Shown here piece after piece: positions 1 to 3,000 of a DNA stretch of 9,830 nucleotides. The position numbers are program-made. The stretch comes from a plasmid: the sequence record NZ_CP102822.1. One strand, given 5' to 3'. Numbering within the stretch: position 1 is the stretch's first letter; each line of letters opens with the position of its first letter.

Positions 1-3000
1 ATGAGAGATTTAGTTGTAAAGGACAATGCCTTAATCAACGCAAGCTATAACTTAGACTTAGTAGAACAACGTTTAATTTTATTGGCTATTGTTGAAGCAA
101 GGGAAAGTGGGAAAGGGATTAATGCAAATGATCCATTAGAAGTTCATGCAGATAGTTATATCAATCAATTTGGTGTACACCGTAATACAGCTTATCAAGC
201 CTTAAAAGATGCTTGTAAGGATTTATTCGCGCGTCAATTTAGCTATCAAGAGAAAAAAGCTAATGGGAATATCCGAAATGTTATGAGTCGTTGGGTATCT
301 CAAATTGCTTATAACGACAATGAAGCAACTGTAGACTTAATATTTGCACCTGCTGTTGTTCCCTTCATAACCCGACTGGAAGAACAATTTACTAAATATG
401 AATTACAGCAAGTTAGTAGTCTTAGTAGCGCTTATGCCATTCGCTTATATGAGCTTCTAATTCAGTGGCGAAGCACTGGTAAAACCCCAACCATAGAACT
501 ACAAGAATTTAGAAAGAAGTTAGGCGTTCTTGATAATGAATATTTACGGATGGCTCATTTAAAAGAGCGTGTTTTAGAGCTTTCAATTAAACAAATAAAT
601 GAGCATACGGATATAACTGTAAAATATGAACAGCATAAAAGAGGACGTTCTATTTCAGGATTTTCTTTTACCTTTAAACAGAAGAAGAAGGATAGCCCAT
701 CAATAGAAAGAGATCCGAACACTTTGGAGCTTTTTTCAAAGATGACCGATGCTCAACGGCATATGTTTGCAAATAAACTTTCAGAACTCCCTGAAATGGG
801 TCGCTATTCACAAGGAACAGAAAGCTACCAACAGTTTGCTGTACGTATTGCTGAGATGCTACAAGATCCCGCTCAATTCAAAGAGCTATACCCATACCTA
901 AAAAAAGTGGGATACATGCCATCAAATAAAAAGGACACCGTAAATGGCTAAGTTATCACTAAGTGAAGTATCTAAAAAATTTCATGTGGATAGATCAACC
1001 ATTTACAGAGCTGTACGTAATGGACGTTTATCACGCTCCAGTGATGGACAATTCGATCTAGCAGAGGTCATACGATGCTTTGGAGAACCTGAGCAAACAT
1101 CTCAAAAAATTGAATCATCTAAGCAAGAAGGTGATGAATCTACAAAAAAACTTATTGCCCATTTAGAAAATGAAGTCAAAAAATACCAAGAACGTGAAGA
1201 ACGGTTAATGCAACAAATTGACCGTATGCAAACACTCATTGAGCTGAAAAGTGTTGCACCTGCCACAGCAGCACCACACCAAGATGCTACGGCATGCGAC
1301 ACCAAGATGCCACAGCATGCGACAACACAACAAGACACTGATAACAAAAAGAATAATGAATTAAATATTGCAGAAAATGTAGCAGTGCCACAGCAAGAAA
1401 CTACGGCATACCACACCCAAACGCTACAGCATGCCACGTTGCAAAGTGTGGCAGTGCCACAACACAAAAAACGTGGTTTATTTGGCCGTGTGCTGAATGC
1501 CGTCTTTGATAATGACTGAGCAATAAGGGTGAAAGATCATGCCGAAACTGAAAGACATTGCCCTGGGAATTATTGTAGCTCCGCTGCTGATCCCGATCAT
1601 GCTGATTGCATCGTACCAGGATAAAAAGGCGCTGAAGAAAGAGCTGGATGAATGCCAAAAAGAAAAAGACCAGGCATCCTGATTATTCAATTGAGCTAAT
1701 CAAAAGTGTGGAACATTGATGAAATAATAGCGTGGAACGTGAAAAGTCATAAAAAAAGCCCGAACAGGGATGCTCGGGCTATAAACTAGAAACTACAGCG
1801 TTGAATTATAAGGATAATTATACAGCATTTCGTATAAGGCGTATTATGTTAATTTTAGAAATTATTAAATGATTCCAAGATTTTCTAGCGACTTATAAGT
1901 AATTTCATTACGAATAGAACCAGACATTCCTTCTTTCATTTCTAAGTTGAGCGAAAAGGGGATTTTTTTTCCATTAGCTTGCTCCACCCAACCAGTCAAC
2001 CAACCTACCTGTGGAGTAACATCCATTCCCCATCCACTTTTTGCATAAATCTTACTACCATTTACTTCTTTAATTAGAAGCATTTTTTTAACTTCTTCTT
2101 GAGTTTCTAATTTAAAAGGTAATCGGTTATGTGCAAGGTCATCGGCAAAATTAACTTCTTGTACTGGTGTAATTTTAAGGGGGCCAACTAACCAAAAATT
2201 ATCGACCTGTGTTCCAATATTTGTATTTCCAAAATTAACCCGCTTTACTTCTTTCTGCATTAGCTCTAGGCCAGTCCGTCTTGCAAGCTCTTGATATACT
2301 GGAACTGCTGACAATGCCATTGCCTCACCTAAAGTCATATCTTTCTCCCACATAGGATAAGTTCTTTTTTTACCATCCCATTTGAAAATCTCATTTGTTG
2401 TTGCTTTATGATTTTCTAGCCCGATTAAAGCATTTAGCATCTTAAATGTTGATGCAGGGACATATTCTTTATTTGCTCGTGCAAGAGCATTACCATAGGT
2501 GCTAAGATTTTTACCCTCTTTAATAATAATTACACCCTGTGTTTGAGCTTCATCAAAATAGCTTTTAATAGCTTTTTCATGTTGCTGAGAAGAAATATGA
2601 AAATTATCTTCAGATTTAGTTTTAATAGATGAACATGCACTGAGAGAAACTAGAATAGAAATGCTGAATATAGGAAGTATAAATTTTTTCATTACAAATT
2701 CATGTTAGGGGAAATTTTGGGGCTTAGAGTATAATATTTTTATTAAAAAAGTTAAAACTCTTTTAGGGTGTGTTGACACTTTTAGCTTAAAAAAATAGCG
2801 AAGTAGTAAAATCAAATCACCAAACCCAATTTTACTATTCGCTATGCCTCGTACCATGCTGACAGATCAACACTGGCAAAAGTTGAAAGTTATTCTGCGT
2901 AATTTATCCATTCACCACAACTCAAATTTACGCAATTTTATTGAAGCTATTCTCTATAGAATTAGAACAGGCTGTCCGTGGCGAGATATTCCTTCTTGTT

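What the first reader, a model, noticed from the sequence alone, without database searches (positions are those of the whole stretch)
1865..2692. Carbapenemase gene reads as OXA-72 (OXA-24/40 with G224D) inside a pdif-bounded module
The translation matches my recollection of OXA-24/40 exactly except for Asp224 (GAT). A single codon therefore decides the allele call. The gene sits between a C/D pdif site (1827-1854) and a D/C pdif site (3626-3653), the arrangement in which this carbapenemase is mobilised between Acinetobacter plasmids by Xer recombination rather than by a transposon.
Basis: partly seen in the sequence, partly recalled or inferred. Interest (0 to 1): 0.55.

Follow-up and report, generated by a model that had tools for sequence, protein, structure and literature searches.

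The report
Known OXA-72 carbapenemase plasmid module

Summary
Window 1865-2692 (minus strand) encodes a 275-aa protein. It is identical in DNA and protein to blaOXA-72 of pAB-NCGM253 (WP_000713530.1). It differs from OXA-24/40 of pABVA01 only at Gly224Asp (GGT to GAT, window 2021-2023).

The flanking 28-mers are genuine pdif sites. The site at 1827-1854 matches the consensus exactly. The site at 3626-3653 has 2 mismatches and is inverted. Three such sites occur in the window against 0.01 expected by chance.

Comparison with seven other contexts places the homology breakpoints inside these sites. The XerD arms and everything between them stay constant, which makes this a "D module".

It lies at 2766-3623 with a TA target duplication, 73 bp upstream of the ATG and abutting the XerD arm.

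The whole window is pAB-NCGM253 plus this insertion. The only other differences are four substitutions, all inside the D/C pdif site.

This architecture was published in 2016 (pA105-2, pMAL-1) and is reported in isolates from several European countries and Lebanon.

Current experiments favour movement through Xer-mediated plasmid cointegration and resolution, not excision of the module.

Verdict: correct, ordinary, already known.

The parts
1827..1854 (+). pdif site in C/D orientation: XerC arm ATTTCGTATAA, spacer GGCGTA, XerD arm TTATGTTAATT. It forms the left boundary of the oxa72 D module.
   Evidence: It has 0 mismatches to the consensus. In pAB120 copy 2, L007, L008 and L011, homology to the window starts at 1827 or 1829.
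1865..2692 (-). blaOXA-72 coding sequence (275 aa plus stop), an OXA-24/40-family class D carbapenemase
   Evidence: It is identical in DNA and protein to blaOXA-72 of pAB-NCGM253. NCBIfam NF000434 scores 652.4 bits against a cutoff of 615. The motifs S81-T-F-K84, S128-A-V, K218-S-G, Y112 and M223 are all present.
2021..2023 (-). Codon 224, GAT (Asp). This single base difference separates OXA-72 from OXA-24/40, which has GGT (Gly).
   Evidence: the review PMC4790369 describes OXA-72 as a Gly224Asp mutant of OXA-24/40
2728..2755 (-). Candidate native sigma-70-like promoter for blaOXA-72 (TTAACT, 16 nt, TATACT). It is retained between ISAba31 and the ATG.
   Evidence: This is a consensus scan match only, 9 of 12 positions, and such matches are not enriched over shuffles. 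Whether it functions as a promoter is inferred. The same 73-bp stretch is conserved in all IS-free copies.
2764..2765 (.). Left copy of the 2-bp TA target-site duplication made by ISAba31
   Evidence: In the comparison with the empty site in pAB-NCGM253, both copies map to the same two bases, L001 5195-5196.
2766..3623 (+). ISAba31 (IS5 family), 858 bp, with inverted repeats GGGTGTGTTGACACTT and AAGTGTCAACAGACCC. It lies inside the module and its transposase gene is transcribed divergently from blaOXA-72.
   Evidence: It is absent from pAB-NCGM253. It is 99-99.7% identical to elements annotated as ISAba31 in 117 Acinetobacter plasmids. Its length, inverted repeats and 248-aa transposase match the original description in PMC4776018.
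2844..3590 (+). ISAba31 transposase gene (248 aa, DDE type), apparently intact
   Evidence: NCBIfam NF033580, IS5 family transposase, scores 267 bits against a cutoff of 110. Pfam finds DUF4096 and DDE_Tnp_1.
3624..3625 (.). Right copy of the TA target-site duplication, immediately next to the XerD arm of the D/C pdif site
3626..3653 (-). pdif site, D/C on the plus strand. Read on the minus strand it is XerC arm ACTTCGTATAA, spacer TCGCCA, XerD arm TTATGTTAAAT. It forms the right boundary of the module.
   Evidence: It has 2 mismatches to the consensus. In pAB120 copy 1, pMMA2, AB40-VUB, L007 and L008 the sequence diverges from the spacer outward. All 4 substitutions relative to pAB-NCGM253 lie here, at 3640-3642 and 3647.
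8044..8071 (-). Third pdif site, D/C on the plus strand: GCTTCGTATAA-GAGATT-TTATGTTAAAT. Together with the 1827 site it bounds the replication backbone as a C module. The stretch 3626-8071 lies between two D/C sites and is therefore a fused CD module.
   Evidence: It has 3 mismatches to the consensus. Near-identity between the window and pAB120 ends at 8069. The C, D and CD module definitions come from PMC13141974.
1757..1780 (-). GC-rich hairpin followed by a T-run, downstream of blaOXA-72 and outside the module in the backbone. It is a possible terminator for the blaOXA-72 transcript.
   Evidence: This is a pattern scan match only: 1 found against 1.4 expected from shuffles. Its function is inferred.

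Best explanation
The window is a complete 9,830-bp Acinetobacter GR2/Rep_3 plasmid of the published pA105-2/pMAL-1 type. In effect it is pAB-NCGM253 with one ISAba31 insertion. It carries blaOXA-72, which encodes a class D serine carbapenemase that is OXA-24/40 with Gly224Asp, next to Met223 of the Tyr112-Met223 active-site bridge. The gene sits in a dif 'D module', bounded by two inverted 28-bp XerC/XerD (pdif) sites whose XerD arms face inward. After the module was assembled, an 858-bp ISAba31 transposed into a TA dinucleotide 73 bp upstream of the ATG, directly beside the XerD arm. This enlarged the module from 967 to 1827 bp without disrupting the gene, the 73 bp carrying its likely promoter, or either pdif core. 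Movement between plasmids is most likely by host XerC/XerD recombination between pdif sites with matching spacers on two co-resident plasmids, giving a cointegrate that is then resolved at a second site pair. It is unlikely to occur by excision of the module or by the single IS. Shown here: the allele identity, the sites and their orientation, the breakpoints inside the sites, and the IS with its target duplication. Inferred: promoter use, enzyme activity in this host, and the Xer mechanism for this particular module.
For: Allele. The gene is identical in DNA and protein to blaOXA-72 (WP_000713530.1, AMRFinder 100%). Compared with OXA-24, 274 of 275 residues match and only G224D differs. The codon is GAT here and GGT in pABVA01. 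The literature definition agrees (PMC4790369). The NF000434 score is above its cutoff and the catalytic motifs are intact.

Sites. There are three consensus pdif matches against 0.01 expected.

Module boundaries. In pAB120 (both copies), pMMA2, AB40-VUB, L007, L008 and L011, the XerD arms and the interior are invariant. The spacer, the XerC arm and the outer flanks change. In L007 and L008, homology to the window runs from 1827 or 1829 to 2765.

Backbone. The window minus the IS has the same length as pAB-NCGM253 and differs by 4 substitutions, all within the D/C pdif site.

Insertion sequence. It is annotated as ISAba31 in 117 plasmids at 95-99.7% identity. Its length of 858 bp, its 16-bp inverted repeats, its 248-aa transposase, its 2-bp duplication and its position upstream of blaOXA-72 between XerC/XerD-like sites on a pAB-NCGM253-like GR2 plasmid are exactly as published (PMC4776018). 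The same arrangement is reported for pMAL-1 (PMC6968657), for Belgian isolates (PMC9487538) and for Bulgarian ST636 (PMC10141887). An identical junction and backbone occur in three NCBI assemblies.

Mechanism. The oxa24 module is described as a D module, and rearrangements at pdif sites with identical or near-identical spacers have been detected experimentally (PMC13141974). Xer-dependent cointegrates, and no excision, were found in A. baumannii. Sites sharing a T/CCGCCA spacer recombined, and the window's D/C spacer is TCGCCA (PMC11705084).
Against: Nothing contradicts the identity calls. The weaknesses are these. pA105-2 (KR535993) and pMAL-1 (KX230793) are not held in the searchable collections, so identity to them is inferred from the published descriptions, not from an alignment. 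PLSDB holds no record with the IS/blaOXA-72 junction. The promoter is only a 9-of-12 consensus match, and such matches are not enriched over shuffles. Xer-mediated transfer of this module has never been reconstituted, and the second (resolution) step of the cointegrate model has not been demonstrated experimentally. The window's two flanking spacers differ (GGCGTA and TCGCCA) and are inverted, so intramolecular excision is not expected.
Confidence: 0.93

Rival explanations
1. The gene is mobilised by ISAba31, for example by one-ended or composite transposition or by IS-mediated cointegration, and not by Xer recombination. On this reading the pdif sites are incidental plasmid dimer-resolution sites.
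For: An intact ISAba31 lies 73 bp upstream of the gene. Three NCBI scaffolds join the plasmid's ISAba31 left end to chromosomal DNA ending in an ISAba31 right end. Some papers suggest the IS adds routes for gene transfer (PMC10141887).
Against: The window holds only one IS copy. Its perfect 2-bp target duplication marks a simple insertion into a pre-existing module. The same module without the IS is found in many backbones, with breakpoints at the pdif sites and not at IS ends. The scaffold joins run across 100-N gaps inside the IS and are the expected artefact of a repeated IS in short-read assemblies. IS5-family elements are not known to carry adjacent genes from a single copy (general knowledge).
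Confidence: 0.04
2. The ISAba31 insertion is functionally important. It might change blaOXA-72 expression through an outward or hybrid promoter or through altered upstream DNA. It might instead change the activity of the adjacent pdif site. Either effect could explain the epidemic success of this plasmid variant.
For: The IS sits 10 bp upstream of the candidate -35 hexamer and directly beside the XerD arm. The IS-bearing variant is reported repeatedly in isolates from several European countries and Lebanon. Authors state that its effect on expression needs investigation (PMC6968657).
Against: The candidate native promoter and the whole 73-bp leader are untouched. The scan found no outward-facing promoter-like match at the IS left end on the minus strand. 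The transposase gene points away from blaOXA-72. IS-free plasmids such as pAB-NCGM253 and pAB120 also confer resistance and spread. Clonal spread of the host lineages is a sufficient explanation.
Confidence: 0.12
3. The allele is OXA-24/40 or another OXA-24-like variant, and the Asp224 codon is a sequencing error.
For: One base decides the call.
Against: The full 828-bp coding sequence is identical to blaOXA-72 in independent records, including pAB-NCGM253. The exact protein is listed in 1891 blocks of the public assembly index. The backbone is also that of the OXA-72 plasmid lineage.
Confidence: 0.01

Closest known systems
pA105-2 (GenBank KR535993; Karah et al. 2016, PMC4776018) and pMAL-1 (KX230793, 9,810 bp; Dortet et al. 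2016, as cited in PMC6968657)
   Same: Both are GR2/Aci1 Rep_3 plasmids related to pAB-NCGM253. [quoted passage not shown] The IS is 858 bp with the same 16-bp inverted repeats, a 248-aa transposase and a 2-bp duplication. The accessory genes are also shared: a TonB-dependent receptor, a septicolysin-like gene and a BrnT/BrnA toxin-antitoxin pair.
   Different: Nothing demonstrable. The sequences are not in the searchable collections, so base-level identity could not be checked. pMAL-1 is reported as 9,810 bp, against 9,830 bp here.
pAB-NCGM253 (NC_021489.1 / AB823544, 8,970 bp, Japan)
   Same: The backbone and blaOXA-72 are identical. Once the IS is removed, the window has the same length as this plasmid.
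   Different: It lacks ISAba31. It has 4 substitutions, all in the D/C pdif site: spacer TGGACG against TGGCGA, and one base in the XerC arm.
pABVA01 (NC_012813.1) and pMMA2 (NC_013277.1), the original blaOXA-24/40 XerC/XerD-flanked modules
   Same: They carry the same D module with the same XerD arms and leader. The pABVA01 D/C site is identical to the one in the window.
   Different: They carry the OXA-24/40 allele (Gly224, GGT) and no ISAba31. pMMA2 has a different replicon cluster.
pAB120 (NC_019359.1, Lithuania), which has two copies of the blaOXA-72 module
   Same: It has the same rep backbone and the same allele. Its two copies show each module boundary separately.
   Different: It has two module copies plus an extra RelE/ParE-family toxin and HTH-protein gene region, and no ISAba31.
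ISAjo2/IS1202-family elements, which target pdif sites (PMC10132070)
   Same: These are also insertion sequences found immediately next to a pdif site in Acinetobacter plasmids (abstract).
   Different: They are 1.5 kb long, belong to a different family, and insert 5 bp from the XerC arm in a fixed orientation. ISAba31 is an 858-bp IS5-family element that here abuts the XerD arm, and no site targeting has been shown for it.

Membership tests
OXA-24/40-family class D carbapenemase, allele OXA-72 | Whole-protein score above the curated NCBIfam blaOXA-24_like cutoff | tested here: met
   NF000434 scores 652.4 bits against a cutoff of 615. The next family, OXA-143, scores 596.3, below its cutoff of 610.
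OXA-24/40-family class D carbapenemase, allele OXA-72 | Exact identity to the reference OXA-72 protein | tested here: met
   The sequence is identical over 275 aa and 828 nt to WP_000713530.1 in pAB-NCGM253, which AMRFinder scores at 100% identity.
OXA-24/40-family class D carbapenemase, allele OXA-72 | Differs from OXA-24/40 only by Gly224Asp | tested here: met
   Compared with OXA-24 of pABVA01, 274 of 275 residues match and G224D is the sole difference. The codons are GGT and GAT. PDB OXA-24 chains show the same single difference over residues 31-275. The definition is given in PMC4790369.
OXA-24/40-family class D carbapenemase, allele OXA-72 | Class D catalytic motifs (S-T-F-K, S-A-V, K-S-G) and the Tyr112/Met223 bridge | tested here: met
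   S81TFK84, S128AV, K218SG, Y112 and M223 are all present.
OXA-24/40-family class D carbapenemase, allele OXA-72 | Carbapenem hydrolysis and a resistance phenotype | not testable with these tools
   This requires MIC or enzyme assays. It is expected, because the protein is identical to the characterised enzyme.
Acinetobacter pdif (XerC/XerD) dif module, D type | 28-bp sites made of an 11-bp XerC arm, a 6-bp spacer and an 11-bp XerD arm that match the consensus, including ATAA-N6-TTAT | tested here: met
   The two sites have 0 and 2 mismatches. The window holds 3 sites against 0.01 expected by chance.
Acinetobacter pdif (XerC/XerD) dif module, D type | Flanking sites inverted, with the XerD arms internal | tested here: met
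   The left site is C/D and the right site is D/C. The definition, and the description of oxa24 as a D module, come from PMC13141974.
Acinetobacter pdif (XerC/XerD) dif module, D type | The same unit is found in different plasmid backbones, with homology ending inside the pdif sites | tested here: met
   This holds for pAB120 copies 1 and 2, pMMA2, AB40-VUB, L007, L008 and L011.
Acinetobacter pdif (XerC/XerD) dif module, D type | The sites are bound and recombined by host XerC/XerD | not testable with these tools
   Only evidence from related sites is available (PMC11705084; PMC13141974).
ISAba31 (IS5 family) | 858 bp with 16-bp imperfect inverted repeats GGGTGTGTTGACACTT and AAGTGTCAACAGACCC | tested here: met
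   Window 2766-3623 has exactly this length and these ends, matching the description in PMC4776018.
ISAba31 (IS5 family) | A single 248-aa DDE transposase of the IS5 family | tested here: met
   ORF 2844-3590 encodes 248 aa. NF033580 scores 267 bits against a cutoff of 110, and Pfam finds DUF4096 and DDE_Tnp_1. The element is 99-99.7% identical in DNA to annotated ISAba31 copies.
ISAba31 (IS5 family) | 2-bp target-site duplication | tested here: met
   TA occurs at 2764-2765 and at 3624-3625, where pAB-NCGM253 has a single TA. The paper writes the duplication as 'AT'.
GR2/Aci1 Rep_3 plasmid of the pAB-NCGM253 lineage | RepM/Rep_3 initiator, iterons and a backbone identical to the lineage | tested here: met
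   Rep3_N and Rep3_C domains are present. There are four perfect 22-bp iterons at 9690-9777. The IS-free window is 8,970 bp and differs from pAB-NCGM253 at 4 positions.

The most novel reading that the evidence does not exclude
The ISAba31 insertion directly beside the XerD arm of the D/C pdif site, 10 bp upstream of the candidate -35 element of blaOXA-72, may not be neutral. It could alter carbapenemase expression. It could instead alter how the neighbouring pdif site is used by XerC/XerD, for example by locking the module into this backbone or changing partner choice. Either effect could contribute to the spread of the ISAba31-blaOXA-72 plasmid in isolates from several European countries and Lebanon. 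The clustering of all four substitutions relative to pAB-NCGM253 inside this one pdif site would then be a footprint of recent Xer exchange at this site.
Probability: 0.1. Interest if true: 0.4.

Novelty: already known. Interest (0 to 1): 0.1.

Why it matters
OXA-72 is a clinically important acquired carbapenemase of Acinetobacter baumannii. The single codon 224 decides the allele name used in surveillance, so a correct call matters for epidemiology. The module is a textbook example of resistance-gene shuffling at plasmid Xer sites. Nothing here is new. The gene, the pdif sites, the ISAba31 insertion and the plasmid type were all published in 2016 and have been reported repeatedly since. The remaining open points are small. 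One is whether ISAba31 affects expression or Xer activity. The other is how a single D module actually moves.

Tried and rejected
1. I looked for a plasmid record holding the whole 1700-3800 segment, or the IS/blaOXA-72 junction, in PLSDB. None was found. The best hits cover 59% of the query, which is the module without the IS. An exact-match scan for the junction in the GTDB species-representative genomes also found nothing. This reflects what the collections hold, not novelty, because the literature and three NCBI assemblies carry the junction.

2. I tried to read Dortet 2016 (PMC5038319) and D'Andrea 2009 (PMC2715606) for promoter and pMAL-1 data. Neither paper is held.

3. pAB0057 (NC_011585.1) was wanted as a backbone without the module, but it is not in the collection.

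4. I searched for additional or degenerate pdif sites in the intergenic regions. Nothing convincing was found beyond the three sites. The best candidate, 7015-7042, has 7 mismatches. Two relaxed hits inside znuD2 are taken as chance.

5. I considered chromosomal integration of the plasmid, as suggested by L006, L009 and L010. I rejected this as unproven, because the joins cross 100-N scaffold gaps inside ISAba31.

6. No outward-facing promoter at the IS left end appeared in the scan.
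Full report
**1. The observation**

The ORF at window 1865-2692 lies on the minus strand and encodes 275 aa. Residue 224 is Asp, encoded by GAT at window 2021-2023.

The coding sequence and its protein are identical, base for base, to blaOXA-72 of pAB-NCGM253. [quoted passage not shown]

Against OXA-24 of pABVA01 the protein matches at 274 of 275 residues. The single difference is G224D, and the codon is GGT there and GAT here. Solved OXA-24 structures (3znt, 2jc7) show the same single difference over residues 31-275. A review defines OXA-72 as 'a Gly224Asp mutant of OXA-24/40' (PMC4790369).

The NCBIfam blaOXA-24_like model scores 652.4 bits against a cutoff of 615. The class D motifs S81-T-F-K84, S128-A-V and K218-S-G are intact, as are Tyr112 and Met223. 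The allele call is therefore secure.

**2. The flanking sites**

Window 1827-1854 reads ATTTCGTATAA-GGCGTA-TTATGTTAATT. This is a perfect match to the pdif consensus in C/D orientation.

Window 3626-3653, read on the minus strand, is ACTTCGTATAA-TCGCCA-TTATGTTAAAT. It has 2 mismatches and is D/C on the plus strand.

A third site lies at 8044-8071, with 3 mismatches, also D/C. With up to 3 mismatches the window holds three matches, against 0.01 expected from shuffles. A relaxed scan found no further convincing site.

**3. What else is in the module**

Of these, 860 bp are an insertion that pAB-NCGM253 lacks.

- Window 2766-3623 is 858 bp long and is flanked by a duplicated TA at 2764-2765 and 3624-3625.
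- It has 16-bp imperfect inverted repeats, GGGTGTGTTGACACTT and AAGTGTCAACAGACCC.
- It carries one 248-aa IS5-family DDE transposase gene at 2844-3590.
- It is 95-99.7% identical to elements annotated as ISAba31 in 117 Acinetobacter plasmids.
- Every one of these features matches the original description of ISAba31 (PMC4776018).

The IS lies 73 bp upstream of the blaOXA-72 ATG, and its transposase gene is transcribed away from blaOXA-72. Its right-hand target duplication directly abuts the XerD arm of the D/C site.

**4. The whole window**

With the IS and one TA copy removed, the window is 8,970 bp, the same length as pAB-NCGM253. It differs at only four positions (3640, 3641, 3642, 3647). 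All four lie inside the D/C pdif site: three in the spacer and one in the XerC arm. The window's version of that site is identical to the one in pABVA01 and in pAB120 copy 2.

The remaining features are as follows:

- repM/Rep_3 at 1-951.
- A replication DNA-binding protein gene at 944-1519.
- Four perfect 22-bp iterons at 9690-9777.
- brnT/brnA toxin-antitoxin genes.
- The TonB-dependent receptor gene znuD2.
- A DUF6847/DIP1984-family gene.

**5. Are the pdif sites real module boundaries?**

Yes. I aligned both junctions across pAB-NCGM253, pAB120 (two module copies), pMMA2, pABVA01 and the AB40-VUB plasmid. I also aligned three further contexts retrieved through the exact protein (L007, L008, L011).

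In every case the XerD arms and everything between them are invariant. The spacer, the XerC arm and the outer flanks vary or become unrelated.

In L007 and L008 the only strong homology to the window runs from 1827 or 1829 to 2765, which is the IS-free module. pAB120 shows each boundary separately: copy 1 keeps the left flank and copy 2 keeps the right flank. Near-identity between the window and pAB120 also ends at 8069, inside the third pdif site.

In the Hall laboratory nomenclature this is a D module, with XerD sites internal (PMC13141974). The replication backbone (8044 through the origin to 1854) is a C module. The stretch 3626-8071 lies between two D/C sites and is a fused CD module.

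**6. Mechanism**

*Enzyme.* The protein is a class D serine beta-lactamase. Asp224 sits next to Met223. From general knowledge of the OXA-24 structure, Met223 forms with Tyr112 the hydrophobic bridge over the active site.

*Expression.* One sigma-70-like match lies on the coding strand between the IS and the ATG: TTAACT, 16 nt, TATACT, at 2755-2728. The entire 73-bp leader is conserved in IS-free copies. The native promoter is therefore probably intact, and no outward promoter-like match was found at the IS end. These are only consensus matches. A published comment says the effect of ISAba31 on expression still needs study (PMC6968657).

*Mobility.* The single IS with its intact target duplication is a passenger, not the vehicle. 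Comparative evidence points to Xer recombination. However, the flanking sites are inverted and have different spacers (GGCGTA and TCGCCA). Experiments in A. baumannii found no excision of such cassettes. They did find Xer-dependent cointegrates between plasmids at sites with matching spacers, including sites with a T/CCGCCA spacer (PMC11705084). Rearrangements at pdif sites with identical or near-identical spacers have also been detected experimentally (PMC13141974).

The most likely route is therefore cointegration followed by resolution. This is inferred for the present module, not shown.

**7. Comparison with what is known**

[quoted passage not shown] It was also published as pMAL-1 (KX230793, 9,810 bp) from Serbia and found again in Lebanon (PMC6968657).

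It occurs in seven of eight Belgian blaOXA-72 isolates (PMC9487538) and in Bulgarian ST636 (PMC10141887). In Croatian isolates the blaOXA-72 contigs carry terminal ISAba31 fragments (PMC13509934). It is also listed in a European survey (PMC9791997).

Three NCBI assemblies carry the identical junction and backbone. PLSDB and the GTDB representative genomes happen not to hold it.

**8. Verdict**

The first is the ISAba31 insertion that makes up 47% of the module. The second is the current view that movement goes through cointegrates, not excision. The feature is already known. Interest is low.

Noticed in passing
window 3637-3647: The only four differences between the IS-free window and pAB-NCGM253 over 8,970 bp all lie in the spacer (3 bases) and XerC arm (1 base) of the D/C pdif site. 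The window's version equals that of pABVA01 and pAB120 copy 2. This looks like a footprint of exchange at this site, not random mutation.
   Followed up: partly
L006 3678-3927; also L009 and L010 (NCBI assemblies GCA_958322085.1, GCA_013185115.1, GCA_958320795.1): Long scaffolds join the ISAba31 left end of this plasmid, across a 100-N gap, to an ISAba31 right end followed by three different stretches of chromosomal genes. This is either a scaffolding artefact caused by multiple ISAba31 copies or real IS-mediated integration of the plasmid. It cannot be decided from these data.
   Followed up: partly
window 2633-2692 (minus strand; protein residues 1-20): The OXA-72 signal peptide ends in a lipobox-like L-S-A-C motif (residues 17-20, Cys20). 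This suggests a lipidated, membrane-anchored enzyme, not a soluble periplasmic one.
   Followed up: no
window 3626-8071: The segment carrying brnT/brnA, znuD2 and the DUF6847/DIP1984 gene lies between two pdif sites of the same orientation (D/C and D/C). It therefore behaves as a fused 'CD' module. Only a very degenerate pdif-like relic (7015-7042, 7 mismatches) was seen inside it.
   Followed up: partly
window 9690-9777: Four perfect tandem copies of a 22-bp iteron (ATATGTCCACGTTTACCTTGCA) lie upstream of repM, which starts at window base 1. The window appears to be a complete circular plasmid linearised at the rep start codon.
   Followed up: partly
window 1757-1780 (minus strand): A GC-rich hairpin followed by a T-run lies just outside the C/D pdif site, in the backbone, downstream of blaOXA-72. 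The backbone may supply the terminator for whichever D module is inserted there. This is a pattern match only.
   Followed up: no
window 2762-2765 and 3624-3630, compared with ISAba31 copies in other plasmids: Many unrelated ISAba31 copies in PLSDB align 2-4 bases beyond the IS ends, into the T/A-rich flanks. This hints at a preferred A/T-rich target around the duplicated TA. ISAba31 may therefore have landed beside the A/T-rich XerD arm by sequence preference, not by pdif targeting.
   Followed up: no
window 1261-1324: A 23-bp unit is imperfectly repeated 2.7 times inside the orfX-like 'plasmid replication DNA-binding protein' gene (944-1519). At protein level it gives a repetitive Gln/Thr/Ala-rich stretch.
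   Followed up: no
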